Part shown: positions 12,082 to 63,177 of the stretch, one piece after another
How positions within the stretch are numbered: position 1 is the stretch's first letter
Layout of the letters: each line of letters opens with the position of its first letter
NCBI GenBank assembly: GCA_035400945.1
Contig: DAONAJ010000003.1
Coordinates: 88,676-152,675, forward strand
Direction: 5' to 3'
DNA from: Spirochaetota bacterium
Lineage (GTDB): Bacteria; Spirochaetota; UBA4802; UBA5550
Length of the DNA stretch: 64,000 nucleotides
Made by a program: the position numbers and the translations under genes
The notes under the pieces: model-generated
What the model saw: only the letters and a program-made list of their open reading frames with translations
Database searches by the model: none
What the model was told of the DNA's origin: nothing

Positions 12082-12956
<875 letters not shown>

Positions 12957-13177
12957 AATGCCTCGATAAGATGTATATTATAACTATTTTTTTCAATTCC
13001 CCCTGCGCCGGAAACTGCAGGGAAAAACCATCATTCATGGTATTACAGCATATCCTGTAATACTGAATAACTCAATTCAGCATGAAACATTGTTAAAATA
13101 TGAATTATACACACCCGGATTGCAGAGTGTACAGCTTAATTTTGAAGGGATATCCGTCAACGGGAAATTAATTTTTT

Positions 13178-13732
13178 TTATAATCCAATTTTTTTGCATA
13201 AACCGGCCAGGTGATAGACCACTATGCCGTAGGCAACGGTGACATTGAGGGACTGTTTCAGGCCATGCATCGGTATATCAACCGCCATGTCGCACAGGGA
13301 CAGCAGCTCATCGGTAATGCCCTTCACCTCGTTGCCCAGGACCAGACAAAGGGGGAATTCATACCGGGCCTCGTCATAGGGAATACTCCGGCCGGTGTGC
13401 TCCAGGGCCACGATCCGGGACCCCTGGCCCCTGAGGCCGCGGATCACCTCAAACTGGTTCGGCCGGTATTCCCAGGGGACGCTTTCCACGCTCCCGAGGG
13501 CGGTCTTGTCGATCTCCGGCCGCGGAGGATGGCCCGTATAGCCGCACAGGTAGAGCTTTTCTATGCCGGCGCCGTCCGAGGTGCGGAAAATGGAACCCAC
13601 ATTGTACAGACTGCGAATGTCCTCGCACACCACGGTTACGGGTAACCGCTTCGCCTTCCTCAGCTGATCAAGGGAGGGGCGGGCCGATTTCAGCTCCTGG
13701 TGCGATAATTTTCTGATTGTGTCATCAGTCAT
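13178..13732 (-). CDS. SpoU/TrmH family RNA 2'-O-methyltransferase
   Basis: 184 aa SPOUT fold; LVLGNEVKGI and C-terminal knot motifs. Confidence 0.8.
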   Translation of the reverse strand: MTDDTIRKLSHQELKSARPSLDQLRKAKRLPVTVVCEDIRSLYNVGSIFRTSDGAGIEKLYLCGYTGHPPRPEIDKTALGSVESVPWEYRPNQFEVIRGLRGQGSRIVALEHTGRSIPYDEARYEFPLCLVLGNEVKGITDELLSLCDMAVDIPMHGLKQSLNVTVAYGIVVYHLAGLCKKIGL

Positions 13733-13739
13733 GGCAGGG

Positions 13740-14441
13740 TCATCTCCCGCGCAACAAGCCGTTGAAACGGGCGATGGGCCATTCCTTTTCCCTGGCCCGA
13801 GCCTCCAGGAGGCGGTCCGGGTTTACCGCGCAGGGGAATCCCACCATCTCCAGAAAGGGCGCGTCATAAATGCTGTCCCCGAAAAAGGCGCAGCGGACGA
13901 GGGGAACGCCGGCTTCGGCGGCGTAGCGCTTTCCCAGCTCCACCTTGCCCTCCCCGAAGCTGTAGGGCCTGACCGGTTCGGTGAAGCGGACGCCATCGTC
14001 ATGGAAGCGATTGGCGATCATATGGTCCATCTCGAGGTAATGCGCATAGGGCCCGGCAATGCATTCGTTCTGTGCCGTCAGGAGAACGACCCGGCACCCG
14101 CGTTGTTTCAGCTTCCTGATCAGGTCCGCCGCTTCCCGGTATACATGGTTCCTCCCTGCGTCATCGAAGAATTTCTTCCCCATCGCCCGGAATTCTTCCG
14201 TCCCAAGGCTGCCGACGCGGAACTTCTGGTAGCGCATGTATTCTTCAATGTGCATCCCGCCCCGGCGGAAGTCCCGGTAAAGCTTCGAAAGCCACGCGCG
14301 CTCGACCCACCCCTTCAGGTTACGGCGGGAGCGCCACGAGGCCCAGAGGGAATCCGTGTCCGCGTCGGTGATTGTCTCGTCCAGATCGAAAAAGGCGATC
14401 GACGCATCCTGCAGGTCATCGCTGATGAATTGGGTAGTCAT
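13740..14441 (-). CDS. HAD-IB family hydrolase
   Basis: 233 aa; FFDLDETITDADT motif I; paralogous to the 3098-3769 gene. Confidence 0.7.
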   Translation of the reverse strand: MTTQFISDDLQDASIAFFDLDETITDADTDSLWASWRSRRNLKGWVERAWLSKLYRDFRRGGMHIEEYMRYQKFRVGSLGTEEFRAMGKKFFDDAGRNHVYREAADLIRKLKQRGCRVVLLTAQNECIAGPYAHYLEMDHMIANRFHDDGVRFTEPVRPYSFGEGKVELGKRYAAEAGVPLVRCAFFGDSIYDAPFLEMVGFPCAVNPDRLLEARAREKEWPIARFNGLLRGR

Positions 14442-14586
14442 AGCCGCACCAGGTCCTGAATGTGATATAGGGAAAAGTACATCTCGCGGAGGGAGTTAAT
14501 TAATTCAAGAATTTTATGAGGCGTGCGGGAAATATTCTCTGGCCGCGCACCGGAACCTTTATCCATGAAGTTACGGGATGCGAAAA

Positions 14587-46611: not shown

Positions 46612-47059
46612 GTATGAAGGTCAATCACTCCCTGTTCTATCGGCCCAGGCCGGTGTTTTGTATACTATTTCGTCATGGCGGTAAATTGCAATCACGTTTC
46701 ATCCATAGTGCGATAATATTTTTCATGGCAAAAAGAGTATTGCTTCGCTGCGCCCGTGCTAACACGCTGATGGAGGTATATCAAAAAGCATCAAATGGCC
46801 CCCATCCATGGGCAGGGTGAGGACTGGATACATCAACCACTTCTTCAGCATTGAAATAAAAAACCCGCCCCGGCCGGATTGATCCCGTTGAAAACTGTTT
46901 TTCATTTTGATACTTCTCTCTTTTTTGTTTTGACATTCAACCCGCGGTCCTGTAATGGTGCTATCTAAAATACAGAAACACATTCACCCCATTTGCACTT
47001 GTCGAACCGCCGGCACCGCCGCAGGCGGAGCAAATACTATTTGTTATTCGGAATTGGAT

Positions 47060-48049
47060 ATGAAACGGCATACTCGAACCATTTTACCGGTCCTGTTTTT
47101 CCTTCTCGTCATGACCGGGACCGGCGCCATGGCCGACACCGTCAGGCTTTACGATGGCACGGTCCTGGTGGGCAAAATCATCAGGGAAGACACGTCGGCC
47201 ATAACCTTCGCGAACTCCTACGGCACCTTCAAGATAAAACGGATCAGGATTGACGATATCTACAAAACCGAATCATACGATGAAGACATCGAAATCCACA
47301 GGAAGATGAAGTTTCCGGTAAACCTGTATAAAATCAGGGTCAATTACATTGCCGGGCTGAACAGGAAAGAGGGAAAGAAACGCGCGCTCATCCTTTTAAA
47401 AAAGGACAGGGAAAAGCGGGAAGCCAGACTGAAGGCCGAGAAAGAAAAAGCCGACAAGGAAAAAGCCAAGAAACAGGCAAAGGCCCGCGACAGGAAGAAA
47501 CGCCGAGGAGAAAGGCGCGGGCCCGTGACCGGGGACCACTGGACCAGCGGCCGCCTCTCCTTCTCCGGTGCTTTTCACTACAACCTGGGCAGCTCCCACA
47601 GCGCCCTTCCCCACGGGTATGCCGGCTATTTCGCCCTTGACCAGGGGCTGGACTTCGCCTCCGGCAGCCGCCATCCCATGATCCCGGGCCTCAGGTTCGA
47701 AGGCGGGTACATCTATTTCAAGAGATCATCGTACATGCTGTCGGGGTATCTCTTCGGCGGTGGGCTCATGTGGGCCTTTCCGTCCATGAAAAACAGCTGG
47801 GGCTGCTTTGTCCTGGCCCTCATACCCGGAGCCTCCTACCTGGAGGCGAAAATCAGCAGCTCCTTTCCCGGGATCGACGGCGGAACTTCCCGGGGCTTCA
47901 ACTTTTCCGCCCAGGCGATTTTCGGATACCAGAAATCCTTCGGCGTGTTCTCGATGTTCATCCAGGCACGGTACATGTACATCAAGGGGATGCGCTCGTA
48001 CTTTCATTCAGTCGCGGGAGAATGCGGATTCGGCTTCAATGCCTGGTAG
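47060..48049 (+). CDS. Hypothetical secreted/outer-membrane protein with KE-rich coiled-coil and C-terminal aromatic beta-rich domain
   Basis: Start at MKRHTRTILPVLFFLLVMTGTGAMA (signal peptide); Lys/Glu/Arg-rich segment; C-terminus ends GFGFNAW (OMP-like terminal aromatic). Confidence 0.5.
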   Translation: MKRHTRTILPVLFFLLVMTGTGAMADTVRLYDGTVLVGKIIREDTSAITFANSYGTFKIKRIRIDDIYKTESYDEDIEIHRKMKFPVNLYKIRVNYIAGLNRKEGKKRALILLKKDREKREARLKAEKEKADKEKAKKQAKARDRKKRRGERRGPVTGDHWTSGRLSFSGAFHYNLGSSHSALPHGYAGYFALDQGLDFASGSRHPMIPGLRFEGGYIYFKRSSYMLSGYLFGGGLMWAFPSMKNSWGCFVLALIPGASYLEAKISSSFPGIDGGTSRGFNFSAQAIFGYQKSFGVFSMFIQARYMYIKGMRSYFHSVAGECGFGFNAW

Positions 48050-48068: not shown

Positions 48069-49022
48069 CTATTGTTCCTCCTCCACCTTCTCGATGAGGC
48101 CCCTGCGCTCCATGTCCTGCAGGGTGTTGAGCTCGCTCTCTATGGCCTTTCTGGCTTCCGGGTCTTCAACAGTTTCCACATCGATCACCTGGTCTTTGCC
48201 GTTCCCGATCGACCCGGCCGGCGCCGCCTCCTCCCCGGTTTTCCGCGGTGTTTCGGTCTTTTCACCCCGGGCTTTTTCAGCCGATGAACCGTCCTCAAGA
48301 CTTTCCGGTTTTGATATGGAGAGCCCTTTTTTCCCTTCCTTCTCTTTCGGGACCGTTGAATAGGGCTCCGGTTCCTTGCGCTTCACGGCCACGGGCCGCT
48401 TTTTCTGCTCCGGCTTCTTTTTAAGTGCAACCGGTTTTTTCGGCCCACCCTTACCGGGCGCGACCTCTTTCTCTTCACCGGGCCCGTTCATGGCCTCCCC
48501 GGCCTCTGTTCCGGTGTAATCGACGCTTGACATCACCTCGTTGAAAACGTCCGTGTATCGCGAGAAGGAGCCGATGGGGGCCCTGCACTCGATGACCAGG
48601 GTGTTGCTGCCATACCGCGAGAACATGGTGCGCTGGAGCATCCTCACGCCCCGGGAATAATAATCGAAAACAACGACCTTGACCGTCACGTTGCCGCCTG
48701 CGGCCAGCTCCTTCGTCTCGATGATCTTCCTGAAGCCCTGCCCGGTTCCCGGGCCCAGCAGTTTCCTCCAGACGCTCAGTTCCTGAGCGCCCTCCCCGCC
48801 GGCGGGCAAAGCCGTGACGGCTATCTCGGTTCCGGCCGCGCGGGCGCGCCTGAAGATCACGTGATGCCGGTCCCCGTCTTCCCGGTAATTCTTTTTCCAG
48901 TCCGCCGGGGCGCAGATGCTGTAGTGGAAACCGGTGTCGCTGTACCTCCTGCACTCGGAGGCACGGGCCATTGATGGCAACAGCGCAACAATTACGAAGG
49001 GAAGAAGGGCAACGTTTTTCAT
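48069..49022 (-). CDS. Hypothetical secreted protein with KE/P-rich C-terminal tail
   Basis: Start at MKNVALLPFVIVALLPSMARA (signal peptide); globular N-domain then low-complexity acidic/lysine tail; convergent with the previous gene. Confidence 0.5.
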   Translation of the reverse strand: MKNVALLPFVIVALLPSMARASECRRYSDTGFHYSICAPADWKKNYREDGDRHHVIFRRARAAGTEIAVTALPAGGEGAQELSVWRKLLGPGTGQGFRKIIETKELAAGGNVTVKVVVFDYYSRGVRMLQRTMFSRYGSNTLVIECRAPIGSFSRYTDVFNEVMSSVDYTGTEAGEAMNGPGEEKEVAPGKGGPKKPVALKKKPEQKKRPVAVKRKEPEPYSTVPKEKEGKKGLSISKPESLEDGSSAEKARGEKTETPRKTGEEAAPAGSIGNGKDQVIDVETVEDPEARKAIESELNTLQDMERRGLIEKVEEEQ

Positions 49023-49240
49023 AGGGGTCAAACATCCATGTCTACTAGCATTAAGGACTACCGCCATCCCGGGGATCGTATTTATGAAAGCAAAAACATT
49101 GGTGCGAGTCAATAACATTTTCCCCCCGCCCCGCCGGGACATAAAAAATAGGTTGATTATTCCCTGCCGGTGTGGGACATTTTTCCAGGGACGGCGGACC
49201 CGTCCCCGTTTCCCGGCAACACACCCAGGGAGGTGGCATC

Positions 49241-50620
49241 ATGAAGATCACGGTCCTCAACGGAAGCCCCAAGGGGGACACGAGCGTCACCATGCAGTAT
49301 ATCCGGTATACGCAAAAACAGCACCCGGACCACACGTACTACATCCATGACATTTCCCGGGGGATAAAGGTCATCGAAAAGGATCCGAAGGCCTTCCGCG
49401 CCGTCCTGGAGGATGTCAGGGCATCAGAGCTCGTCATCTGGGCATTCCCCCTCTACTACTTCCTTGTCCCGTCGCAGTACAAACGATTCATAGAGCTGGT
49501 GTTCGAGGGGAAAGCTGCCCCGGCCTTCAGATCAAAATTCGCAGCGGTCATCACGACCTCCATCCATTTCTTCGACCACACGGCGCACAACTACATGCGC
49601 GCCATCTGCGATGACCTTGCTATGAAATTCGCCGGTTCCTACTCCGCCTCCATGTACGACCTGGTGAGGAGCCGTGAGCGGAAGCGCTTTGACGCCTTCA
49701 CAACATGCATGTTCGACGCCGTGCGGGACAACACGCCTGCGGCGCGGGCCTATTACCCAGTCAGCGCCAGGATGTCGCCGTACCGGCCCTCCCCGCCGAA
49801 AATCAGGATCAATCCCGCCGGGAAAAACATCGTCATCATCACCGACGCAGCCTCCCCCTCATCCAACCTTGGGAAGATGGCCGAGCGCCTCAGCCGGTCC
49901 TTTACCGAGGCGCCGCCGGTATACAACCTCCACGACCTCAAGATCAAGGGGGGATGCCTGGGGTGCCTCCAGTGCGCCTACGACAACCGGTGCGTGTACG
50001 GGGACAGCGACGACTTTCACCTCTTCTTTGAAAGCAGGATCAAGGCGGCGGACATCATCTTTTACTGCATGGAGACGCGGGACCGGTACCTTTCGTCCCT
50101 GTGGAAGCGGTTCATCGACAGGAGCTTCTACAACAATCACACCCCCGTCCTCGAAGGAAAGCAGATAGGGTGCCTCGTGTCGGGCCCGCTGGGGAAACTT
50201 TCGTCCTTCAATGAATTTCTCCGCTGCTTTCCGGAATTCCAGCATGCAAACCTTGTTGATATCGTCACAGACGAAGGCGGGAACTCGAAGGTTCTGGACC
50301 TGCAGATCCAGAACCTGGCCTCCAACGCCGTTGCCCGGGCCGAGAAGAATTACATAGGACCCCAGACCTTCCAGAGCGTCGGCGGCTGGAAGATTTTCAG
50401 GGACGAGATCTGGAGCTGGCTGCGTTTTCCCTTCCTGGCCGACCACCGCTACTACAAGAAGCACGGCATGTACGACTTCCCGAAGCGGCGCTTCACGCAG
50501 AGCCTGGTCAACGGGGCCCTTTCGCAGATGGTCAGGTTCCCCGGCTTCAGGGAGGTCGTGTACAAGCAGCGCATGAAGGATGAGATGCTGCGGCCCTTCA
50601 AGACCATCCTGAAGCAGTAG
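49241..50620 (+). CDS. Tandem flavodoxin-like-fold protein (NAD(P)H-dependent FMN reductase-like) with Isf-type Cys cluster motif
   Basis: 460 aa from MKITVLNGSPKGDTS (RBS GGGAGG); second flavodoxin-like repeat (KNIVIITDAASPSS...) carries C-x2-C-x2-C-x5-C (CLGCLQCAYDNRC), the iron-sulfur flavoprotein 4Fe-4S pattern. Confidence 0.65.
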   Translation: MKITVLNGSPKGDTSVTMQYIRYTQKQHPDHTYYIHDISRGIKVIEKDPKAFRAVLEDVRASELVIWAFPLYYFLVPSQYKRFIELVFEGKAAPAFRSKFAAVITTSIHFFDHTAHNYMRAICDDLAMKFAGSYSASMYDLVRSRERKRFDAFTTCMFDAVRDNTPAARAYYPVSARMSPYRPSPPKIRINPAGKNIVIITDAASPSSNLGKMAERLSRSFTEAPPVYNLHDLKIKGGCLGCLQCAYDNRCVYGDSDDFHLFFESRIKAADIIFYCMETRDRYLSSLWKRFIDRSFYNNHTPVLEGKQIGCLVSGPLGKLSSFNEFLRCFPEFQHANLVDIVTDEGGNSKVLDLQIQNLASNAVARAEKNYIGPQTFQSVGGWKIFRDEIWSWLRFPFLADHRYYKKHGMYDFPKRRFTQSLVNGALSQMVRFPGFREVVYKQRMKDEMLRPFKTILKQ

Positions 50621-50670
50621 GCAATAAGTAGCACTGCATCCAAAACCGCAATCGGGCATTTACCCCAGTA

Positions 50671-50698
50671 AAAACAGGCCCGGTCCTTTCCTGTTTTA
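50671..50698 (+). terminator. Weak terminator-like hairpin after the flavodoxin-like gene
   Basis: aaacagg-cccggtcctttc-cctgtttt. Confidence 0.4.
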
Positions 50699-50782
50699 GG
50701 ATTTTATCTTGACAATTTAGCTGAACACTGTTAAATTAACATTGTTCATATTATTAATGACAATTATTCAGGAAGGACGGCA

Positions 50783-51415
50783 ATGCCCAAAACCAGCAGA
50801 AGCGCCGAAGAAGTGGCGCAGGTCCGGGAGCATATTCTTAGCGCGGCCATCGGGATCATAGCCGACAAGGGATTCAGCCGCCTGAGCATGCGCAGCCTGG
50901 CGTCGGCCATCGGCATGACCGCCGCCAACATCTATAATTATTACAGCAGCAAGGACGAGCTGTACCTTGACATCCAGACCGCCGGATTCCAGGAACTCTA
51001 CGCCCGCTTTGCCGGTGCGCGGGACCGTGAAAAAACGCCGCTGAAAAAAATCGCGGCGATCATGAAGGAATATATATCATACGGAACATCCAACCCGGAC
51101 AGCTACAATATCATCTTCAGCATGGATACGCCCAAGTACGCCGATTACCGCGACACGCAGATCGAGCCGGTTGCCTACGCTGAAAAGAAAGCGGGGCTGG
51201 ACCTCATAGAGATAACCCGCCCCGTCGTGGCGGAGCTTCTGAAAAAGCGCGGGAAGCCAGCCGCCGGGGCATGGAAAAAAACCGTGCAGGCGTGGATCAT
51301 GCTCCATGGCATCGTAAGCCTCATGAACAGCCGCGTCCTCCAGGAGGTGGCGGATGACAGCTCCCGATTCATAGACGAAAGCGTGAAAGACGTTGTCAAT
51401 TACCTGCTCTCATAA
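50783..51415 (+). CDS. TetR/AcrR family transcriptional regulator
   Basis: 210 aa; N-terminal TetR HTH (ILSAAIGIIADKGFSRLSMRSLASAIGMTAANIYNYYSSKDELY); 26 bp upstream of the GRE gene. Confidence 0.85.
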   Translation: MPKTSRSAEEVAQVREHILSAAIGIIADKGFSRLSMRSLASAIGMTAANIYNYYSSKDELYLDIQTAGFQELYARFAGARDREKTPLKKIAAIMKEYISYGTSNPDSYNIIFSMDTPKYADYRDTQIEPVAYAEKKAGLDLIEITRPVVAELLKKRGKPAAGAWKKTVQAWIMLHGIVSLMNSRVLQEVADDSSRFIDESVKDVVNYLLS

Positions 51416-51441
51416 AACCTGACGCTACCGGGAGACCGCCC

Positions 51442-54399
51442 ATGAACATCATAACCTACATTCTCCTCCGCCTCATGGCCCTGCTCTTCAACCTGCGGCC
51501 CTCGCTGCGGAACTACCTCGCCGGCGCGGACGGCTTCATCAACTTCGTCGTGGGGTTCGCCACGGAAGACGGCAGCGTCAACCGCGCCATTTCCTTCCGC
51601 GACGGAAAGGTCAGGGCGCTGCGCCGCATACCCGCCGATGCGGACGTGACCCTGCGGTTCCGGAGCGGCAGGACCCTCATGGAGATGCTCAGGATTACCC
51701 CCAACGAAATGCTCATCCTTATCCTGAACAACAAGATGATCCTCGAGGGAAACATCGCCTATCTCCAGCTCTTCAACTTTTACATATCGCTGCTCCTGTG
51801 GAAAACCCACCGGCGAATGCTGGACAGAAAACAGAAGAAGGACATCAGGGAGCGGAAGCGGCAGTACGGCTCCGATAGGGCCGCTCCCGGCGACGATCTT
51901 CCCGCCCGCCGCAGGGGAATGCTCCGCGCCCCCTCGGTCGACCGGAACGTGAAGCATCTCGCGGACCCCTACCTGGCCGATTACAGTCTCGACGATTTCC
52001 CGCGCCTGCGGTGGATGCTGGACCGCCATTTCGACCGCATGCCGCAGCTCTGCGTGGAGCGGCCGAAGCTCCTCACCGACTGGTACCGGGCCAACGGCTT
52101 CGAGACCGACGCATCCGGAAAGCCCTGGGTGCCGGTACTGCGGCAGGCACTGGCCTTCAAGCATCTCATGGAACACAAAAAGCCGATAATCGCCGAGAGG
52201 GAGCTGATCGCGGGCACCAGCACCGCGAAGGAGCCCACCGGCGTCATCATATATCCCGACGCCCAGGGCACCATGCTCTGGGGCGAACTCAGGTCGATCG
52301 GCGACCGCGTTCTCAATCCCTACACGATCAGTCCGGAAGACGCCGACATCCTCCACCACGAGATCTTCCCCTTCTGGGCAACGCGGAACTTCAGGGAGTA
52401 TGTGCGCACGAAATACAACCATCCCCTCTGCCTCAAGATCGACGAGCGCTGGGTCTACTACTTCGTATGGAAATCGGTGGGCGTGTCCCATACCGTGCCG
52501 GACTACCCGGCGCTGCTGTCCCGGGGAACCCGGGGCCTGGCCTCCGATATCGATGCCGCCCTTTCGAGACTCGGCGATACAGACGCCGATCGCCGCGCCA
52601 ATCTCGAGGCGATGAAACTGTGCCTGGAAGCCCTCGATATCTACGGGAGGAACCTTTCCCTTGAAGCGGCGCGCCTCGCAGCGGCGGAACCGGACCCGTC
52701 CCGCCGCGCCGAACTGGAGAGGATCGCGCAGATCTGCGGCCGGGTGCCGCGGGAACCGGCCCGCACCCTCGACGAGGCGGTGAACGCGGTCTGGATCGCG
52801 TGGGTGGCCCTCCACATGGAAAACACCAACACGGGCCTCTCCCTGGGCCGCCTGGACCAGTGGCTCCAGCCCTATTTCGCCGCGGACATGGAGGCCATCG
52901 CCGACGACGCCGGCCGCGACGCGTACCTGAAACGCGCCATCGAGCTCGTCGGCTGCCTCTACATGCGCGGCACCGACCACCTTCCCCTCGTGCCCGACAT
53001 CGGCAACTACCTCTTCGGCGGGAGCTCGTCGGACCAGGCGATAACCCTCGGCGGGGTAACCCCGGACGGTAGCGACGGCGTGTGCGACATGACCTACATC
53101 ATGCTCAAGGTCACCGAGATGCTCTCCATCAGGGACCCCAACGTGAATGCCCGCTTCAACCCGGACCGGAACAGCGAGGCCTACCTGGATCGCCTCTGCG
53201 AGGTCAACTACGTGACCGCGGCAACGCCGTCGATGCACAACGACCGCTCCGTGTCCGCGTCCCTGGAGGACAAGGGCTACGACCCCCGTCACGTGCGCGA
53301 CTGGTCTGCCACCGGCTGCGTCGAGCCGACCCTGTCCGGCCGCCACATGGGTCACACGGGCTCGATACTGATGAACATGGTTTCGGCCCTCGAGATGGCC
53401 CTCAACAACGGGAACCACCCCCACGTGAACTGGCAGCTTGGACCCCGGACCGGATCCGTCGAGGGCGGTGACTTCGTCTCCTTCGAGGACTTCTTCAACG
53501 CCTGGGCGGCGCAGCAGCGTTTTCTCATCGACCAGGCGGTGGAGCTCAATAACCTCTATGCCGAGGCCCATGCCCGGTACCGTCCGTCGCCCCTCCTGAG
53601 CGCCCTCATCGACGGGTGCATAGCAAACGGCCTGGACGTGACCGCCGGCGGCGCCCGCTACAACAGCTCCGGGAGCTCTAATATCGGCCTGGCGGACGTG
53701 ACCGATTCCCTCATGGCGGTCAAGACACTGGTCTTCGACGAAAAGAAGGTCTCCTTCGCGGACCTCAAAAAAGCCATCGATACCGATTTCCGCGACGCTC
53801 CGGCCCTGCGCGCCCTGGTGCAGCGGAAGGTTCCCCTCTTCGGGTCCGGAGACCAGGCCGCCCTTGACATGGCCCGGCGGGTGGCCCGGGTCGTCCATGA
53901 CGCCTACGCGGCCCACCGCAACTACCGGGGCGGGCCCTACACCTCGGGCTTCTGGTCCATGTCGCAGCACGTGGCCTACGGCACCCTCTCGGGCACGCTC
54001 CCGTCGGGGCGCCTCTCGGGCAAGGCCTTCACCCCGGGGCTCACGCCGCAGCCCTCCGCGTCGCCGAGCTTCCTCGACAACATACGCGACGTGGCGCGCC
54101 TCGACCCGGCCTGCATGGACAACAACATCGCCTTCAACGTGAAGCTGGTCCCCGCGGCCGGCGAAAGCCGCGGGGACATCGTGAAAGCCATGAGGAATTA
54201 CGTGAAGACCTATTTCGACCTGGGCGGCATGCAGATGCAGTTCAACGTGGTGAACTCCGCCACGCTGAAAGACGCCATGGCCAACCCCGAAAAATACCGC
54301 AACCTGCTGGTGCGGATATCGGGCTACAACGCCTATTTCGTGACGCTGAATCGCGAGATGCAGATAGAGCTGATAGAGCGGGCGGAATACGGCATGTGA
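51442..54399 (+). CDS. Glycyl radical enzyme (PFL2/glycerol-dehydratase-like clade) with N-terminal SCP2-like domain
   Basis: 985 aa; C-terminal glycyl radical motif RISGYNAYFV; active-site Cys loop SATGCVEPTLSG with Glu (eliminase-type); residues about 20-120 resemble the SCP2 sterol-carrier fold (DVTLRFRSGRTLMEMLRITPNEMLILILNNKMILEGNIAYLQLFNF). Confidence 0.85.
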   Translation: MNIITYILLRLMALLFNLRPSLRNYLAGADGFINFVVGFATEDGSVNRAISFRDGKVRALRRIPADADVTLRFRSGRTLMEMLRITPNEMLILILNNKMILEGNIAYLQLFNFYISLLLWKTHRRMLDRKQKKDIRERKRQYGSDRAAPGDDLPARRRGMLRAPSVDRNVKHLADPYLADYSLDDFPRLRWMLDRHFDRMPQLCVERPKLLTDWYRANGFETDASGKPWVPVLRQALAFKHLMEHKKPIIAERELIAGTSTAKEPTGVIIYPDAQGTMLWGELRSIGDRVLNPYTISPEDADILHHEIFPFWATRNFREYVRTKYNHPLCLKIDERWVYYFVWKSVGVSHTVPDYPALLSRGTRGLASDIDAALSRLGDTDADRRANLEAMKLCLEALDIYGRNLSLEAARLAAAEPDPSRRAELERIAQICGRVPREPARTLDEAVNAVWIAWVALHMENTNTGLSLGRLDQWLQPYFAADMEAIADDAGRDAYLKRAIELVGCLYMRGTDHLPLVPDIGNYLFGGSSSDQAITLGGVTPDGSDGVCDMTYIMLKVTEMLSIRDPNVNARFNPDRNSEAYLDRLCEVNYVTAATPSMHNDRSVSASLEDKGYDPRHVRDWSATGCVEPTLSGRHMGHTGSILMNMVSALEMALNNGNHPHVNWQLGPRTGSVEGGDFVSFEDFFNAWAAQQRFLIDQAVELNNLYAEAHARYRPSPLLSALIDGCIANGLDVTAGGARYNSSGSSNIGLADVTDSLMAVKTLVFDEKKVSFADLKKAIDTDFRDAPALRALVQRKVPLFGSGDQAALDMARRVARVVHDAYAAHRNYRGGPYTSGFWSMSQHVAYGTLSGTLPSGRLSGKAFTPGLTPQPSASPSFLDNIRDVARLDPACMDNNIAFNVKLVPAAGESRGDIVKAMRNYVKTYFDLGGMQMQFNVVNSATLKDAMANPEKYRNLLVRISGYNAYFVTLNREMQIELIERAEYGM

Positions 54400-54538
54400 C
54401 TCATGCCGTGGGGCAAAACAAAGGATCAAGTATTGCCGGCAATTGTACGATAATACGGTATGCATGCCGCCGACGGCGGCACCGGGAATTGATCATTACG
54501 TTTTCCAGGCAGATTGACACTATTCCGGAGAAACCGCG

Positions 54539-54682
54539 ATGAATGAAAAAGCATACATCCAGTCCATAGTGCTGGCCGTGCGCAACGACCTTTCAAAGGG
54601 CATGAAGAAAGACGAGGTTCTGAAGAACCTTTCCCGCGTCATCAGCAGTGACCTCTTCAGCAAGGTAAAAGCCCAGCTGTAG
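54539..54682 (+). CDS. Possible small ORF (47 aa) downstream of the GRE
   Basis: ATG with GGAGA RBS 7 nt upstream; amphipathic helical sequence; no homology recognisable. Confidence 0.25.
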   Translation: MNEKAYIQSIVLAVRNDLSKGMKKDEVLKNLSRVISSDLFSKVKAQL

Positions 54683-54949
54683 CATCAGCAAGTTACCAAC
54701 ACACGCATCTGTCCGGAATACCCTCCCGCTCACCGGAAAACCCGCCACACCTTCGCGCAGCGCCATCCGCCAGCGCACCGGACCGGGTTTTTCAGGAAAC
54801 TGTTAGACTTTTTACATAACCCGTTATACTATTGAATTAATCCCCGGGCTCCATGCGGCGGCCGGGGATTGCATTGATAACGCCGCATTTCCCGGCAGGC
54901 TTTTTATATCCTGCAATAATCCGAACAAACCATTACAAGGAGAAATGCC

Positions 54950-55834
54950 ATGGGTGAATTCTTCAGCGGATACTGGCTGCTTATTACAATTTTAACGATC
55001 GTGTTCCTGGCGATCTTCTTTTCAGGGATACGGATAGTCCGCCCGACACACCGCGGCCTGATCGAACGCCTCGGCAAATACACCCGCTTTGCCCAGCCGG
55101 GCTTTCACTGGATCATCCCCGTCATCGAGCGGATGTTCCGGGTCAACGTCACGGAACAGATGGTCGACGCCAAGCCCCAGGAAATCATAACCAACGACAA
55201 CCTGAACGCCCGGGTGGACGCCCAGGTCTACTTCAAGGTGAAGGCCGACGAGGAGAGCGTCAAGAATTCCCAGTACAACGTCAACAACTACGAACTGCAG
55301 ATAGTGAATCTGGCGCGGACCACCCTGCGGAACATCATCGGCACCATGACGCTGAAATCGGCGAACAGCGAGCGGAGCAAGATCAACTCCGACCTGCTGC
55401 TGACCCTCTGCAAGGAAACGGAAAAATGGGGGCTGGAGGTCGTCAGGACCGAACTGAAGGAGATCGACCCGCCCAAGGACGTACAGGAGACGATGAACAA
55501 GGTGGTGAAGGCGGAGAACGAGAAGATCGCCGCCATCGATTTCGCCACCGCGACCGAGACCGCCGCCGACGGCCAGAAGCGCGCCGACATCAAGAAGGCG
55601 GAAGGGGTGCGGCAGGCGCGGATACTGGCGGCCGACGGCGAGGCCCAGGCGATCAAGCTGGTGAACGAGGCGGCCAACCAGTATTTCATTGGAAACGCGC
55701 AGCTGCTGCGGAGGATCCAGATGCTCGAAGAGGCCCTGAAAAACAACGCGAAGATCGTGGTCCCCGCCGGGACCGACCTGGTCAACGTCCTGGGCGAAAT
55801 GGCGGGCATCGTGCCGCTGAAGCGCGGGAACTAG
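54950..55834 (+). CDS. SPFH/band-7 (stomatin/prohibitin-like) membrane protein
   Basis: 294 aa; N-terminal TM anchor, SPFH core, Ala/Glu-rich coiled-coil C-terminus. Confidence 0.85.
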   Translation: MGEFFSGYWLLITILTIVFLAIFFSGIRIVRPTHRGLIERLGKYTRFAQPGFHWIIPVIERMFRVNVTEQMVDAKPQEIITNDNLNARVDAQVYFKVKADEESVKNSQYNVNNYELQIVNLARTTLRNIIGTMTLKSANSERSKINSDLLLTLCKETEKWGLEVVRTELKEIDPPKDVQETMNKVVKAENEKIAAIDFATATETAADGQKRADIKKAEGVRQARILAADGEAQAIKLVNEAANQYFIGNAQLLRRIQMLEEALKNNAKIVVPAGTDLVNVLGEMAGIVPLKRGN

Positions 55835-55942
55835 CGGGAAGAACCCCGCCAGTTCCCTGCCGCGTAAAAACCGGGACGATTTAACCGGCCATCACCGCGC
55901 AGGTCCGCCATCGTCCGCGCTGAAGAACCGGTCTCCGCGCCG

Positions 55943-56499
55943 TCAGAAGGCGTAGAGGCGCTGGCCCGCTATGACCATGACGCCCTGCCTGAAATCAATG
56001 TTCTTGCCCCTGCCGGCGACACCGCACCCGCCCATTTCCACGAAGAAGGTCCAGTGCTTCATCACGTAGATTTCTATGGCGCCGAAAAAACGCGAGGCGA
56101 AGAAGGGGCCGCGCCTGCGGGTTACATCGTACACGATGCCTCCCGTGACGCCGACATAGAGCCTGCTCTGCAGGTAGATGGGGGTCTTCCACAGGAGCCC
56201 CACGGACGGCATGACCGCAGTGCTCCAGTGCCGCGAGGTCGTAAGGCCCGTCATGGATTGGCGGAAGTAGTACTGGTTGGTAATGACCGGCGCGTCTATG
56301 CGGACGGCAAAGCCCTTGTCCAGGAAGACATGGAAATCAAGGCCATACATCGGGTCCTCATTGTAGAGGCCCACCGGGATACCGATGCCAAATCGCTGGT
56401 TATAGCGCGGCTCCTCCCCCGGCTTGATCGGCTGGGCCGCCGCAAATGAAACGGCCGCCATGACGAGTAACAAAGTCGGCACACATGCCCGAAAAACCA
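55943..56499 (-). CDS. Hypothetical outer-membrane/secreted protein
   Basis: Start at MVFRACVPTLLLVMAAVSFAAAQP (signal peptide); alternating beta-like pattern, C-terminal aromatic (…QRLYAF). Confidence 0.5.
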
Positions 56500-56597
56500 T
56501 GCTGTCACCTCCACTTTGATGTTTAATGCACCACCCGGTTTCACACCGCAACAATCTCACCGGTGAAATAGTTTCCCCGTCCGGAAACGATTTGCCT

Positions 56598-58735: not shown

Positions 58736-59143
58736 ATGGAAAAAGTTCGAGGAGTAATCAAAGGCGTCAGGACCCGGATCCACCAGATCAGCGCCTATAT
58801 AGCGACGCTATACTACCTGGAGATCGTGTTCCTTATGTTCGGGCTGCTGTTCCTGTACGGCAAGGCCGTATCGATCATCGCGGGAATCCTGCTGACCCTG
58901 GCCCTTACCTATCACGTCATACAGCTTTTCTTAAAGAACAGGCTCCACCGGAAGCTGCAGCTCTGGCTGATGGACTTCCATGCGGCCTTTTCAGCGGGGT
59001 TTCTCTTCTTCAACGCGGTCCAGGGCGTCGATATGGCGCCGGGGGCTCTTATCGTTCTCATCACCCGGACCCTGCACCTGGCCTGCGAACTTCCCCTCAT
59101 CTTTTACCTTTCCGGCGACGGGGGAATCTCCGCTTTCCGCTAG
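58736..59143 (+). CDS. Hypothetical small membrane protein
   Basis: 135 aa, 3-4 predicted TM helices. Confidence 0.4.
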   Translation: MEKVRGVIKGVRTRIHQISAYIATLYYLEIVFLMFGLLFLYGKAVSIIAGILLTLALTYHVIQLFLKNRLHRKLQLWLMDFHAAFSAGFLFFNAVQGVDMAPGALIVLITRTLHLACELPLIFYLSGDGGISAFR

Positions 59144-59152: not shown

Positions 59153-59851
59153 TTACTTCGCCGGCTTCGGCTCCTGCACCTGGGCAAACACGGCCCTGGC
59201 ATATTTCTCCCGCTTGATCAGCTCCCGGAGACGCATGAGAGTGTTATAGGGCAGGTCTACAGAGGCCATGTTGGCGATGCCCGGCGGGACCGATCCTCCC
59301 GGCTCGTTATGCATCTGGTACACCACCATGACATCTCCCGATCCGGCCGGGATAAAGGACCAGGCGCCGGTCATCTTCGGAATCCGCACCGTCTTGGGGA
59401 TCGGGGGGATATAATCGGGCTTCCCGGTAAGGGTTATCGTAATCGCCAGGGTCTTCGGGTCCTGCCTGCAGATGGAATATGACACGAGGTCGCGGTTCCA
59501 TACCGGCCAGGGCGCGTGGGTGACGATGTGATGAATCCGCTCATGGAAATTGAACTGTTTCAGGAGCTTCGCGTCAATGCACTCGTACATCCAGGCAGTA
59601 TAGGACGACGTGTCATCAAAGGCGGCCATCAGGCTGGAGAGCCGGGTCTTCTCGAGGTACATGGTCCCCTTGAACTCCTGCAGCTTGGATCCGGGCACGT
59701 CCCTGACGTAGACCTCGATGCCGTTGCCCTTCTTTTTCAGCTTCCATTCGCTCTGGGCTGAAGCATCAACAATAATTGATCCGGCCGCGATGAGCAGCGC
59801 AGCAGCACAGGCAATTTTTTTAATCATGGCAGTCGCCTCTCCATAAGTCAT
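59153..59851 (-). CDS. Secreted START/SRPBCC-type lipid-binding domain protein
   Basis: 232 aa; signal peptide; WKLKKKGNGIEVYVRDVPGS...FKG...HAPWPVWNRDLVSYS pattern typical of START domains. Confidence 0.6.
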   Translation of the reverse strand: MTYGEATAMIKKIACAAALLIAAGSIIVDASAQSEWKLKKKGNGIEVYVRDVPGSKLQEFKGTMYLEKTRLSSLMAAFDDTSSYTAWMYECIDAKLLKQFNFHERIHHIVTHAPWPVWNRDLVSYSICRQDPKTLAITITLTGKPDYIPPIPKTVRIPKMTGAWSFIPAGSGDVMVVYQMHNEPGGSVPPGIANMASVDLPYNTLMRLRELIKREKYARAVFAQVQEPKPAK

Positions 59852-59951: not shown

Positions 59952-60629
59952 CTAGTTGACCATGGGCTCCGATATCACCGGATACATTGCCGCCGCGTAC
60001 CGGTCCTCCCTGACCACGTTCCTGAATTTCTGCATGGTGAGGAACGGCAGGTCCACCACGGACAGGTTCAGCAGGGACAGCGGGAGCGGCCCGCCCGGAT
60101 CGGTGACCGTCTGGTACACGACCATGACGTCGCCGGTTTTCAGCGGCCTGAAGGTCCAGGAGGCCTTCATCATCGGGATACGCAGCCGGCCCTTCTGCGG
60201 CGGTATGTAGTCCGGTTTGCCGGTGATTGCGATGGTCACGGACAGGTCGTCCGGATTCTGGGTCATGAGGGAATACACGATCACGTCCCGGTCGCTGGCG
60301 GGCCAGGGCGCGTGGGTGACGGTGTAGGTGATGCGCTCCTGCACGTTCATGTACTTCAGCAGTTTTGATTCGGTGCAGTTGTGCATCCACCGGGGATAGG
60401 AGGCGGTATCGTCGAAAGTGGCGACCATGCTCGACAACCGCACGCCCTTGACATACATGACCCCCCTGAACTCCTTCAATCCGGATCCGGGGTAGTCCCG
60501 CAGGAAGGCGTAGATCCCGTCCTGCCTTTTCTTCAGCTTCCAGCCGTCATCCGCCGCTGCGGCATTATCAGCCTGCTGGAACACCGCGATTAAAATGAGT
60601 GCAGTAATGACTTTCAGTATTCTCTTCAT
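59952..60629 (-). CDS. Secreted START/SRPBCC-type lipid-binding domain protein (paralog)
   Basis: 225 aa; signal peptide; roughly half identical to the 59153 gene (WKLKKRQDGIYAFLRDYPGSGLKEFRG...HAPWPASDRDVIVYS). Confidence 0.6.
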   Translation of the reverse strand: MKRILKVITALILIAVFQQADNAAAADDGWKLKKRQDGIYAFLRDYPGSGLKEFRGVMYVKGVRLSSMVATFDDTASYPRWMHNCTESKLLKYMNVQERITYTVTHAPWPASDRDVIVYSLMTQNPDDLSVTIAITGKPDYIPPQKGRLRIPMMKASWTFRPLKTGDVMVVYQTVTDPGGPLPLSLLNLSVVDLPFLTMQKFRNVVREDRYAAAMYPVISEPMVN

Positions 60630-61947: not shown

Positions 61948-62153
61948 GGCTTTCCTTCGATGTTTATTGGTAAAAAACAGGAACCAACAGTAAATTAGGG
62001 AACGATTTTGTCAAATCTCTATTTTTTAATACTGGACAATGATCAATTAATCTTAATCCTTGACAAATCTTTTTTTTTATCCGAGAATTACATTTCTCGC
62101 CCGGGGAAATCCCGTGGCTTGGAGCAGCCAAAATACAGTCAGGAGGCCGTGCC

Positions 62154-62798
62154 ATGACGATAACCTATGACAACCAGGAGTCCCGGGAATATTTCGACAA
62201 TGTCCAGGGCTACTACCAGGGCGAGGAAAAGAGGGAGGACGTGGCCCCCATCGGCAGGCGCCTGGCGGAGATCCGGAAGATGCAGAACATCTCCCTGGAG
62301 CAGTTTGCAAAAATATCCGGGATACCCCAGGCCAAGCTCAAGGAGATAGAGGAGCAGAAAATCCTCCCCGACCTGGGGACCATCGTCAAGCTCTCCAAGG
62401 CCCTGCGGATCGGCACGAGCTTTCTCCTGGGAGAGGAATCGGGGTACAGCTATTCCGTGGTGCGGAAAAAGGAGCGGCAGAAGATCAGCCGCGTCTCCAC
62501 CGGCAGCGCCGAGCGCCCCAACTACCAGTACCAGTCTCTTTCCCACGGGGTAAAGGACAAGCACATGGAGACCTTCCTGATAACCCTTTCGCCCGGCGCC
62601 GGCAGCACCGAGCTGTCGAGTCACGACGGCGAGGAGTTCCTGGTGGTAATGGAAGGGTCCATCAGGGTGATCCTGGGCGGCAAGGAGGAGATCCTGAACG
62701 AGGGCGACAGCATCTACTATCACGCCACCCTCCCCCACAACGTTCTGAACGCCGGCAAGGATAACGCCGTCATCATGGCGGTGATCTATGCAGGGTAG
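62154..62798 (+). CDS. XRE-family HTH regulator with C-terminal cupin domain
   Basis: 214 aa; XRE HTH (IGRRLAEIRKMQNISLEQFAKISGIPQAKLKEIE), cupin_2 C-terminus; AGGAGG RBS. Confidence 0.8.
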   Translation: MTITYDNQESREYFDNVQGYYQGEEKREDVAPIGRRLAEIRKMQNISLEQFAKISGIPQAKLKEIEEQKILPDLGTIVKLSKALRIGTSFLLGEESGYSYSVVRKKERQKISRVSTGSAERPNYQYQSLSHGVKDKHMETFLITLSPGAGSTELSSHDGEEFLVVMEGSIRVILGGKEEILNEGDSIYYHATLPHNVLNAGKDNAVIMAVIYAG

Positions 62799-63177
62799 CG
62801 GGCGAGCCATGGGAATGGGGCGCCCTGCCTCGGCTGCATGCTGGCACAGATGGGGAAGACCCCGGGCACGGCAGCAGTGAGCACCCCAGACCGGGCCTCC
62901 ATCCTTAAATCCCTGTAAACCGGTTGGTCGGCTAACAAAAATCAATAGCCCCCGTTAATGAAATTGGTCATTCCCCCTGACCGATACTGTCATGCCAGAA
63001 TCACTGATTCCTGTCCAATGAACCACAACTCCTGGTTATTTACTTTTAATAACCGACAAAGTACCTTATAATTGAATATGAAATTTGATATATAATCATG
63101 GGTCCTTTTTTCATGCTCATATATCACCGGGAGGACGTTAAGCAAAATCGTTCAACAAGGAATTCAAGCCATGAGTT

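What the first reader, a model, noticed from the sequence alone, without database searches (positions are those of the whole stretch)
51442..54399. Glycyl radical enzyme fused to an N-terminal SCP2-like lipid-binding domain
The 985-aa protein has unmistakable GRE hallmarks: the C-terminal RISGYNAYFV glycyl loop and a single catalytic Cys in GCVEP with the eliminase-type Glu. Its first ~120 residues align by eye to the SCP2 sterol-carrier fold (…DVTLRFRSGRTLMEMLRITPNEMLILILNNKMILEGNIAYLQLF…). SCP2 domains bind lipids or other hydrophobic ligands. Known GRE classes (PFL, glycerol/propanediol dehydratase, CutC, HypD, HPAD, X-succinate synthases) do not, to my knowledge, carry this fusion. This points to a GRE acting on a lipid-like or hydrophobic substrate. 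Candidates are a lipid-derived diol or amino-alcohol, or even a sphingoid base, given the ceramidase and START proteins nearby. A TetR regulator sits 26 bp upstream.
Basis: partly seen in the sequence, partly recalled or inferred. Interest (0 to 1): 0.85.

Follow-up and report, generated by a model that had tools for sequence, protein, structure and literature searches.

The report
Glycyl radical enzyme with SCP2-like domain
This is a real, widespread but unstudied family of oxygen-sensitive radical enzymes carrying a built-in lipid-carrier-type domain, which suggests they act on greasy, lipid-like molecules that no enzyme of this superfamily's eliminase branch is known to handle.

Summary
Window 51442-54399 (+) encodes a 985-aa glycyl radical enzyme (GRE) with a PFL-like barrel, a Gly-radical domain (RISG961Y) and a Cys626-Val-Glu628 loop.

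The fusion is conserved full-length in at least 580 GTDB species loci across many anaerobic phyla. In 5 of 5 contigs examined, the same module occurs as a separate ~170-aa gene directly after a related GRE, and before the activase in the four where downstream sequence is held. That argues for a functional partnership.

A TetR gene with a palindromic operator conserved across phyla precedes the GRE. No activase lies in the window, but one is adjacent in 39 of 80 related loci.

The catalytic core fits no named GRE family. The substrate is unknown. A hydroxylated hydrophobic or lipid-like substrate is the best inference. The proposed link to the ceramidase and START genes is not supported by conserved context.

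I found no description in the literature available to me, including a June 2026 GRE review. Verdict: a new variant of a known kind.

The parts
50709..50737 (+). sigma-70-like promoter (TTGACA-17-TAAATT, TG-extended) upstream of tetR
   Evidence: 10 of 12 consensus matches. This is a consensus match only; 3 such sites were found in 49000-56000 against 2.1 expected by shuffling. Its significance comes from its position and its overlap with the operator.
50722..50748 (.). palindromic operator TGAACACTGTTAA-A-TTAACATTGTTCA, the presumed TetR binding site
   Evidence: 13-nt arms, 12 of 13 complementary; unique in the window, 0 expected by chance; palindromes of the same type (AACAnnGTTAA-n-TTAACnnTGTT) lie within 160 bp upstream of the GRE-linked tetR in about 28 of 35 loci (my count by eye from the listing) from several phyla. 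TetR binding itself is inferred.
50783..51415 (+). TetR-family regulator (210 aa)
   Evidence: TetR_N E 2e-12 and TetR_C_33 E 2e-10; a homologous TetR lies near the GRE, usually directly upstream, in 38 of 80 related loci.
51442..54399 (+). SCP2-GRE fusion gene (985 aa plus stop). Identical to HNW26912.1 / HPV40053.1, 'pyruvate formate lyase family protein [Spirochaetota bacterium]'
51442..51822 (+). N-terminal SCP2-fold domain (residues 1-127; alpha-alpha-beta4-alpha-alpha-beta-alpha). The window's N-domain has no Cys and none is conserved across the family, so an Fe-S cluster is unlikely
   Evidence: Mean identity to family members is 56%.
51823..51996 (+). basic helix and linker (residues 128-185). 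The slightly larger segment 119-168 has net charge +10 here and averages +7.1 in the family
   Evidence: helix 105-142, then a stretch of lower confidence; linker identity 37% and the charge values.
51997..54396 (+). GRE catalytic core (residues 186-985): PFL-like barrel plus glycyl radical domain
52489..52491 (+). His350 codon, in the invariant 'SHT' motif. It aligns with GDH His164, HypD His160 and CutC Asp216
   Evidence: alignments; invariant column.
53317..53325 (+). Cys626-Val-Glu628 (CXE) on the Cys loop: thiyl radical site and general base
   Evidence: aligns with GDH C433/E435; invariant; the review describes CXE as shared by 1,2-eliminases and isomerases.
54322..54324 (+). Gly961 codon, the glycyl radical site in RISGY

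Best explanation
The gene encodes a glycyl radical enzyme of the CXE (1,2-eliminase/isomerase) type. Its catalytic barrel is permanently tethered, through a ~60-residue basic helix and linker, to an SCP2-fold hydrophobic-ligand-binding domain.

Shown here:
- the GRE hallmarks (Gly961, Cys626, Glu628, His350);
- the SCP2 fold;
- conservation of the fusion under purifying selection in hundreds of anaerobic species;
- the same module as a separate gene directly downstream of a related GRE (and upstream of its activase where that sequence is held);
- a conserved tetR-operator-GRE unit.

Inferred mechanism:
1. A radical-SAM activase, encoded elsewhere in this genome and adjacent in many relatives, installs the Gly961 radical.
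2. The radical passes to Cys626.
3. The thiyl radical abstracts H from a carbinol carbon of the substrate.
4. Glu628 deprotonates the hydroxyl.
5. A vicinal leaving group (water, alkoxide or amine) departs, with His350 acting as acid.
6. The product is an aldehyde or ketone.

Inferred role of the N-domain: the SCP2 module captures the hydrophobic tail of an amphiphilic, hydroxylated, lipid-like substrate, possibly at the membrane surface with help from the basic linker. It then feeds the substrate to the barrel, much as the SCP2-like domain of alkylsulfatases is thought to recruit long-chain substrates. TetR would de-repress the operon when the compound, or a derivative, is present.

The exact substrate is not identified.
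For: - GRE domains and motifs.
- CXE defines the eliminase and isomerase classes: PMC13450708.
- SCP2 fold.
- Conservation: more than 120 full-length homologues at 59-92% identity; at least 580 GTDB species loci; N-domain identity 56% against core 68%.
- Split architecture: in 5 of 5 contigs examined, a standalone ~170-aa homologue of the N-domain (29-31% identity, BLAST E 2e-13 and 1e-11) lies directly after a GRE gene. That GRE is 39-42% identical to the window core and has the same GCVEP...H(T/S)G loop in the two contigs where the gene is complete. An activase follows in the four contigs that hold downstream sequence.
- Activase adjacent in 39 of 80 loci and TetR in 38 of 80.
- Conserved operator.
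- Occasional neighbours fit lipid or aldehyde metabolism: an extended SDR nearest to HpnA, OleD and SdmB, a classical SDR, an AMP-binding ligase, an aldehyde:ferredoxin oxidoreductase, an acyl-CoA dehydrogenase and phosphoesterases.
- Basic linker of +10 next to an acidic core of -15.
- SCP2 domains fused to enzymes that act on long-chain substrates exist (SdsA1, Pisa1 and YjcS among the top structural hits).
Against: - No ligand, substrate or activity has been tested.
- The window protein's Pfam SCP2 score is below the gathering threshold.
- The active-site positions I could map (Y340, H350, T464, G465, D531, H638, T639, W838) are not obviously more hydrophobic than those of soluble-substrate eliminases.
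- Beyond TetR and the activase, neighbourhoods are heterogeneous.
- No activase lies within the 64-kb window or within 10 kb either side on the parent contigs.
Confidence: 0.55

Rival explanations
1. The SCP2-like module is a structural or gating accessory and not a lipid binder. By analogy with the beta and gamma subunits of benzylsuccinate synthase, it would cover a hydrophobic patch, stabilise the enzyme, or control access of substrate or activase. The substrate would be an ordinary small soluble alcohol, diol or amino-alcohol.
For: - The known GRE small subunits are thought to aid solubility and to gate the substrate channel (PMC13450708).
- Occurrence both fused and as a separate gene is typical of obligate subunits.
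- The N-domain's pLDDT rises from 84 alone to 90-96 in the full-length model, which suggests docking onto the core.
- The mapped active-site residues are polar or aromatic, like those of soluble-substrate eliminases.
Against: - Among solved structures, the fold is overwhelmingly used to bind lipids or other hydrophobic ligands; all the top hits are lipid carriers or substrate-recruiting domains.
- It has no conserved Cys or Fe-S cluster, unlike every known GRE small subunit.
- TetR regulators and neighbours typical of lipid metabolism fit a hydrophobic substrate.
Confidence: 0.2
2. The N-domain plus basic linker mainly anchors the enzyme to the membrane. It would localise a GRE that modifies the cell's own membrane lipids (a biosynthetic or remodelling role) and is not catabolic.
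For: - The linker is strongly basic (+10; family mean +7) and sits beside an amphipathic N-terminal helix and a lipid-binding fold.
- TetR-type regulators often control membrane-lipid homeostasis. This point rests on general knowledge; only weak hits to FabR, FadR and FasR were seen.
- The family is widespread in lineages with unusual lipids. This is inference only.
Against: - No lipid-biosynthesis genes are consistently linked.
- The family shows tandem paralogues and active-site subtypes (HTGSI, HTNCM, HTNFQ), which is more typical of catabolic substrate diversification.
- No transmembrane segment is predicted by the model; the N-terminal helix packs into the fold.
Confidence: 0.12
3. It is a hydrocarbon-activating enzyme of the X-succinate-synthase type, as once proposed for the related Archaeoglobus fulgidus PFL2/PflD. 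The SCP2 domain would deliver alkanes.
For: - The best solved homologue is A. fulgidus PFL2 (2F3O, 392 bits).
- The family is common in Smithella and Syntrophaceae, Desulfosudis oleivorans and Desulfatibacillaceae, lineages known for alkane degradation (the physiology is from general knowledge).
Against: - The CXE motif with invariant Glu628 and His350 is the eliminase/isomerase signature.
- MasD and BssA score far lower (219 and 187 bits) than the dehydratases (about 360 bits).
- No HiPIP-like small-subunit gene family recurred in the neighbourhood clustering.
- The 2026 review lists PFL2 itself as of unknown function.
Confidence: 0.05
4. The gene is a non-functional remnant in this genome, because no activase is nearby.
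For: No CxxxCxxC-containing ORF and no activase homologue were found in the 64-kb window or within 10 kb either side on the parent contigs.
Against: - The 985-codon ORF is intact, with every catalytic residue conserved.
- The identical protein is seen on 22 contigs read, from several samples.
- About half of the related loci also lack an adjacent activase.
- The tetR-operator unit is intact.
Confidence: 0.03

Closest known systems
GRE 1,2-eliminases and isomerases: glycerol dehydratase 1R8W, propanediol dehydratase 5I2A, HypD 6VXC, CutC 5FAU/9F3W, HpsG/HpfG, IslA; YbiW, PflD, HplG
   Same: - PFL-like ten-stranded barrel and C-terminal glycyl radical domain.
- A single Cys followed by Glu (CXE).
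- A His at the GDH-H164 / HypD-H160 position.
- The motif TGLSLGRLDQ, nearly identical to CutC's TGLSLGRVDQ.
- An activase with a ferredoxin-like insert in related loci.
   Different: - It reaches no NCBIfam equivalog cut-off: HypD 425 of 1100, HpsG 392 of 1000, CutC 374 of 1050. Even the PFL2-3 subfamily model scores 510 against 678.
- The substrate-specifying residues differ: GDH S282 is G465 and D447 is G640; HypD D278 is T464; CutC D216 is H350.
- It carries a ~185-residue N-terminal SCP2 domain plus linker that none of these has.
Archaeoglobus fulgidus PFL2 (PDB 2F3O)
   Same: It is the best-scoring solved homologue (392 bits over residues 201-981). It shares CVE, the 'ISH' motif and GRxDQ. 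It is also of unknown function.
   Different: It is 776 aa and has no SCP2 domain. Its Cys-loop and barrel-loop residues differ: FSGQATNQ against FGGSSSDQ, and YPMTTN against FWSMSQH.
SCP2-fold lipid binders: UbiJ-SCP2 6H6N/6H6P, human SCP-2L of MFE-2 1IKT, AF1534 3BN8, Yarrowia and Aedes SCP2
   Different: Sequence identity is only 10-22%. The window protein is below the Pfam threshold. The domain has its own conserved polar motifs (N17, TPNE 86-89, GN 103-104, FN 111-112). It is attached to, or encoded beside, a radical enzyme.
Alkylsulfatases SdsA1 / Pisa1 / YjcS: an enzyme plus an SCP2-like domain
   Same: A catalytic domain fused to an SCP2-like domain that is proposed to recruit long-chain hydrophobic substrates. 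These are among the top structural hits. This is the closest analogue for how the window protein might work.
   Different: In the alkylsulfatases the SCP2 domain is C-terminal, the catalytic domain is a metallo-beta-lactamase fold, and the chemistry is hydrolytic, not radical.
GRE small subunits: BSS beta/gamma, MASS beta/gamma/delta, HPAD gamma
   Same: Accessory polypeptides encoded beside the GRE. Some of them gate a hydrophobic substrate channel. The split form found here (GRE, then the SCP2-like gene, then the activase) resembles that operon logic.
   Different: All known small subunits are HiPIP-like [4Fe-4S] or rubredoxin-like proteins, and they occur with decarboxylases or X-succinate synthases. 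This module has an SCP2 fold without conserved Cys and partners a CXE-type GRE.

Membership tests
Glycyl radical enzyme superfamily (PFL-like, IPR004184) | PFL-like beta/alpha barrel domain | tested here: met
   PF02901 E 7e-166, residues 199-847. The AF2 model has pTM 0.92.
Glycyl radical enzyme superfamily (PFL-like, IPR004184) | C-terminal glycyl radical domain with the fingerprint RVxG[FWY]x6-8[FL]x4Qx2[IV]x2R | tested here: met
   PF01228 E 3e-23. The sequence is R958-I-S-G961-Y-NAYFVT-L-NREM-Q-IE-L-IE-R. It has conservative variants (RI for RV, L for I/V), read against the motif quoted.
Glycyl radical enzyme superfamily (PFL-like, IPR004184) | Catalytic Cys on the Cys loop | tested here: met
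   C626 aligns with GDH C433, HypD C434 and CutC C489. It is invariant in 64 sequences.
Glycyl radical enzyme superfamily (PFL-like, IPR004184) | Cognate radical-SAM activating enzyme | tested here: inconclusive
   None lies in the 64-kb window or within 10 kb either side on the parent contigs. One is adjacent in 39 of 80 related loci. The rest of this genome was not available.
GRE 1,2-eliminase / isomerase classes | CXE motif (Glu two residues after the catalytic Cys) | tested here: met
   C626-V-E628 is invariant. The definition is from PMC13450708.
GRE 1,2-eliminase / isomerase classes | Catalysis of a 1,2-elimination or the related ring-opening on a hydroxylated substrate | not testable with these tools
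   This needs an anaerobic enzyme assay with the activase.
Named eliminases (glycerol/propanediol dehydratase, HypD, CutC, HpsG/HpfG) | Equivalog score cut-offs and substrate-binding residues | tested here: not met
   All NCBIfam equivalog scores are below half of their cut-offs. GDH S282 and D447, HypD D278 and CutC D216 are not conserved.
SCP2 sterol-transfer family (Pfam PF02036) | Score at or above the Pfam gathering threshold (21.3 bits) | tested here: not met
   14.6-15.5 bits for the window protein. 35 of 47 homologues match at E <= 1, best 3.6e-5.
SCP2 fold (structural superfamily) | alpha/beta fold with a five-stranded sheet packed by N-terminal helices and a C-terminal helix | tested here: met
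SCP2 fold (structural superfamily) | Binding of a lipid or hydrophobic ligand in an internal cavity | not testable with these tools
Ligand binding needs an experiment.
X-succinate synthases | Small Fe-S subunits, and an active site without the eliminase Glu | tested here: not met
   Glu628 is present and invariant. MasD scores 219 bits and BssA 187 bits, against 392 for PFL2. No HiPIP-like small-subunit family recurred in the neighbourhood clustering.

The most novel reading that the evidence does not exclude
The SCP2-GRE family would be the first set of glycyl radical lyases acting directly on membrane-type lipids under anoxia. Possible reactions include cleaving the ether bond of alkylglycerol or archaeol-type lipids, eliminating ammonia from sphingoid or other amino-alcohol lipids, and dehydrating lipid vicinal diols.

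For ether cleavage, the enzyme would abstract H at the neighbouring carbinol carbon and eliminate the alkoxide. This is the chemistry that YbiW and PflD already perform on ring ethers.

The SCP2 module would extract the lipid from the membrane. No anaerobic enzyme for ether-lipid cleavage is known to me.
Probability: 0.12. Interest if true: 0.9.

Novelty: new variant of a known kind. Interest (0 to 1): 0.68.

Why it matters
All characterised CXE-type GREs act on small, water-soluble metabolites: glycerol, propanediol, choline, hydroxyproline, sulfonates and anhydro-sugar phosphates. All known GRE accessory proteins are small Fe-S or rubredoxin-like subunits.

A clade found in hundreds of anaerobic species couples such a core to an SCP2 lipid-binding module, either fused or as a separate gene. 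This points to an unexplored substrate class of hydrophobic or amphiphilic alcohols and to a new kind of GRE accessory.

The family is abundant in sediments, digesters and groundwater. It occurs in Desulfobacterota, Spirochaetota, Chloroflexota, Actinomycetota and other phyla. Its reaction could therefore be a missing step in anaerobic lipid turnover.

The conserved TetR and operator give a direct experimental route to the substrate, through effector screening.

Tried and rejected
1. A profile of the N-domain searched against PDB sequences gave only chance-level hits to a reovirus VP3 and a cohesin. The link to SCP2 needed fold comparison.
2. Foldseek against afdb50 was unavailable.
3. Model coordinates are not exposed, so I could not examine the SCP2-barrel interface or the cavity.
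4. A search for an activase in the window found none. A CxxxCxxC regex found nothing and tblastn with 10 activases gave only spurious hits.
5. A functional link to the ceramidase and START genes was rejected. The ceramidase is 19 kb away, separated by fliK-flgD-flgE, trpS and regulators. START recurs only in the same lineage.
6. Membership of CutC, HypD, GDH or HpsG was rejected on score cut-offs and residues.
7. X-succinate synthase was rejected (see the rival explanations).
8. Ten literature searches combined 'glycyl radical (enzyme)' with SCP2, SCP-2, sterol carrier protein, lipid/N-terminal domain, ether lipid, sequence similarity network/fusion, alkylglycerol/archaeol/plasmalogen, A. fulgidus PflD/alkanes, sphingo- and lipid-binding. 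None found a description of this architecture. The library lacks most subscription-journal papers, so absence is not proof.
9. Neighbour clusters found in only 3-4 loci (aminotransferase, PfkB-like kinase, methyltransferase-like and others; assignments by eye from the sequences printed) were not pursued as signal.
Full report
**1. What is at the coordinates**

Window 51442-54399 (+) is an uninterrupted 985-codon ORF. Pfam finds a PFL-like domain at residues 199-847 (E 7e-166) and a Gly_radical domain at residues 864-967 (E 3e-23).

The glycyl loop is R958-I-S-G961-Y-NAYFV. The Cys loop is G625-C626-V-E628-P, with a single Cys followed by Glu. A TetR gene (50783-51415; TetR_N plus TetR_C_33) ends 26 bp upstream, and a GGGAG Shine-Dalgarno-like motif precedes the GRE ATG.

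The identical protein is deposited as HNW26912.1 / HPV40053.1, 'pyruvate formate lyase family protein [Spirochaetota bacterium]'. The flagellar hook genes in the window fit a spirochaete.

A 1021-codon antisense ORF (51400-54465, minus strand) shadows the gene. It has no support other than its length.

**2. The N-terminal domain is an SCP2 fold**

By sequence, the window protein matches Pfam SCP2 only below threshold. It scores 14.6-15.5 bits against a cut-off of 21.3, over residues 36-111 and profile positions 23-96 of 101.

The same family is the only recurrent hit when 47 homologous N-termini are scanned one by one. It matches 35 of 47, best E 3.6e-5.

AlphaFold2 with a 64-sequence alignment gives a confident full-length model: pLDDT 89.8, pTM 0.92, and N-domain blocks at 90-96. 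The topology is H2-18, H20-26, E35-41, E47-53, E56-60, E69-73, H76-83, H87-95, E99-103, H105-142. The domain modelled alone has pLDDT 83.6.

- Foldseek against the PDB: the first 43 hits are all SCP2-fold proteins or domains. They include UbiJ-SCP2 (E 2e-5, TM 0.54-0.68), AF1534, the alkylsulfatase C-terminal domains, human SCP-2L, and yeast and insect SCP2.
- A PDB sequence-profile search found nothing meaningful.

The window's N-domain has no Cys, and none is conserved across the family. It is followed by a basic helix and linker. Residues 119-168 carry net charge +10 here and average +7.1 in the family, while the core averages -15.

**3. The fusion is a large, conserved family**

More than 120 database clusters align over 100% of the length at 59-92% identity. 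All are annotated only as PFL-like plus Gly_radical.

The taxa include:
- Desulfobacterota (Smithella and Syntrophaceae, Desulfobacterales, Desulfosudaceae including Desulfosudis oleivorans, Desulfatibacillaceae);
- Spirochaetota / Leptospirales;
- Actinomycetota (Geothermincolia, Anoxymicrobiaceae);
- Chloroflexota, Bacillota, Myxococcota and Phycisphaerae.

Mean identity to the window protein is 56% in the N-domain, 37% in the linker and 68% in the core. The N-domain is therefore under purifying selection.

Some genomes carry tandem paralogues (L008, L011, L036). The family splits into Cys-loop subtypes: HTGSI (the window type, 107 of 201), HTNCM (53) and HTNFQ (15). Changes in a second active-site loop, FGGSSSDQA against FGGASSTQA, also occur. 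This pattern suggests several substrate specificities.

**4. The same module also occurs as a separate gene**

A profile of the N-domain searched against 1.84 billion representative proteins found 354 hits. These comprise fragments, more divergent SCP2-GRE fusions (P0212, P0215, P0231, P0186) and standalone proteins of 165-180 aa.

I examined five standalone genes. In all five, the gene sits immediately downstream of a GRE gene or of a GRE C-terminus (...LVRVSGY(S/T)AYFKDL...). Where downstream sequence is held, an activase follows. The loci are L088, L089/L090/L091, L092, L093 and L094.

The two complete split-system GREs (800 and 885 aa) are 42% and 39% identical to window residues 173-983, and they have the same GCVEPxSxGR...H(T/S)G loop. 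Their SCP2-like partners are 29-31% identical to window residues 4-127, with BLAST E 2e-13 and 1e-11. Like the fusion, they reach no NCBIfam equivalog.

Fused and split forms of the same pair are classic evidence that the two parts work together.

**5. Genomic context**

In the window lineage the order is FMN_red/flavodoxin-like (459 aa), TetR, GRE, a 47-aa ORF, then Band_7. No activase lies within 10 kb either side or anywhere in the window.

I clustered ORFs from the 80 related loci:
- A radical-SAM activase with a ferredoxin-like insert is adjacent in 39 loci.
- A TetR is adjacent in 38 loci.
- Smithella-type loci read TetR, GRE, activase, an extended SDR (nearest to HpnA, OleD and SdmB, all below cut-off), then a classical SDR.
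- An AMP-binding ligase appears in 12 loci.
- An aldehyde:ferredoxin oxidoreductase, an acyl-CoA dehydrogenase, a metallo-beta-lactamase-fold protein and metallophosphoesterases each appear in 3-4 loci.

Upstream of the window's tetR lies a sigma-70-like promoter (50709-50737). It overlaps a 27-bp palindrome, TGAACACTGTTAA-A-TTAACATTGTTCA (50722-50748). The palindrome is unique in the window, with 0 expected by chance. Palindromes of the same type precede the GRE-linked tetR in about 28 of 35 loci (counted by eye from the listing) across phyla. I therefore read tetR-GRE as an autoregulated unit; binding itself is inferred.

**6. What kind of GRE**

The best solved homologues all align only from about residue 180-230 onwards:
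- A. fulgidus PFL2 (2F3O, 392 bits)
- glycerol dehydratase
- HypD
- CutC
- propanediol dehydratase

No NCBIfam equivalog cut-off is approached. HypD scores 425 of 1100, HpsG 392 of 1000 and CutC 374 of 1050. The PFL2-3 subfamily model scores 510 against 678.

From the alignments:
- H350 aligns with GDH H164, HypD H160 and CutC D216.
- C626 and E628 align with GDH C433 and E435.
- GDH S282 corresponds to G465, and GDH D447 to G640.
- HypD D278 corresponds to T464.
- T639 aligns with CutC T502.
- TGLSLGRLDQ matches CutC's TGLSLGRVDQ.

A June 2026 review (PMC13450708) states the following:
- CXE is shared by the 1,2-eliminases and the isomerases.
- YbiW and PflD cleave a ring C-O bond next to the carbinol radical.
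- PFL2 is of unknown function.
- Only HPAD, BSS and MASS are known to have small subunits, all HiPIP-like or rubredoxin-like.
- The words SCP, sterol and 'fused' do not occur in it. 'Lipid' occurs twice, only in book titles in the reference list.

**7. Interpretation**

Shown: this is a CXE-type GRE joined to an SCP2-fold module. The pair is conserved, diversified and TetR-regulated.

Inferred: the usual relay from Gly961 radical to Cys626 thiyl abstracts H from a carbinol carbon. Glu628 acts as base, and His350 assists departure of a vicinal leaving group. The SCP2 module binds the hydrophobic part of an amphiphilic substrate and delivers it to the barrel. The closest working analogue is the SCP2-like domain of long-chain alkylsulfatases. 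The basic linker may hold the enzyme at anionic membranes.

I put about 0.55 on this reading. The rivals are:
- a purely structural or gating accessory (0.2);
- a membrane anchor for remodelling the cell's own lipids (0.12);
- X-succinate-synthase-like hydrocarbon activation (0.05);
- an inactive remnant (0.03).

It has no support from conserved context.

**8. Novelty and limits**

I found no description of this architecture in ten full-text searches or in the 2026 review. Public annotations are generic. The literature library lacks most subscription-journal papers.

The fold assignment rests on a predicted structure. The interface and cavity could not be inspected, because coordinates are not exposed. 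No substrate has been identified.

I rate it a new variant of a known kind, with interest 0.68.

Noticed in passing
window 50722-50748: A 27-bp near-perfect palindrome overlaps the -10 of the tetR promoter. The same operator type is conserved upstream of GRE-linked tetR genes in about 28 of 35 loci (my count by eye) from several phyla. It is unique in the window.
   Followed up: yes
L088 2440-6315; L089 684-4877; L091-L094: Split version of the system: a GRE without the N-domain, then a standalone SCP2-like gene of ~170 aa. An activase follows where downstream sequence is held. In L089 an unannotated 716-aa protein with no Pfam or NCBIfam hit follows the activase.
   Followed up: partly
L008, L011, L036 (tandem); L007 and L029 (second GRE at 11992-14523 and 5912-8428): Tandem paralogous SCP2-GREs with different Cys-loop subtypes (HTGSI, HTNCM, HTNFQ). 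In the Chloroflexota loci, an SCP2-GRE and its activase are followed by a second, shorter GRE (838-843 aa, no SCP2 domain) with its own activase.
   Followed up: partly
window 51400-54465 (-): A 1021-codon antisense ORF covers the whole GRE gene. It is longer than the real gene and was picked by a naive longest-ORF caller. It is most likely a shadow ORF of a GC-rich coding region (65.6% GC at 52-54 kb).
   Followed up: no
window 49241-50620 (+): A 459-aa protein with an N-terminal FMN_red / Flavodoxin_2 domain lies directly upstream of tetR. It is conserved there in the closest relatives (L001-L004) but not elsewhere. It could be a reductant for GRE activation, or unrelated.
   Followed up: no
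window 54539-54682 (+): A 47-aa ORF lies 140 bp downstream of the GRE. It is called as a gene in L001-L004, has no family match, and its function is unknown.
   Followed up: no
window 30094-32262 (-): A full-length neutral/alkaline ceramidase (Ceramidase_alk E 6e-153 plus its C-terminal domain) in a spirochaete genome. It is 19 kb from the GRE and not linked to it by conserved context.
   Followed up: partly
window 59153-59851 (-) and 59952-60629 (-): Two adjacent START-domain (lipid-binding) proteins next to an isocitrate/isopropylmalate dehydrogenase-family gene. This arrangement is conserved only in the closest relatives.
   Followed up: partly
window 18034-20973 (-): A 979-aa protein with Glu/Leu/Phe/Val dehydrogenase domains only in its C-terminal half (a large GDH-like protein). 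It sits next to an MFS transporter and a class-III aminotransferase.
   Followed up: no
window 46955-48049 (+), 48069-49142 (-), 55943-56560 (-), 58736-59143 (+), 62139-62945 (-): Several ORFs of 135-364 aa around the GRE with no Pfam match. The first three are called as genes on the parent contigs.
   Followed up: no
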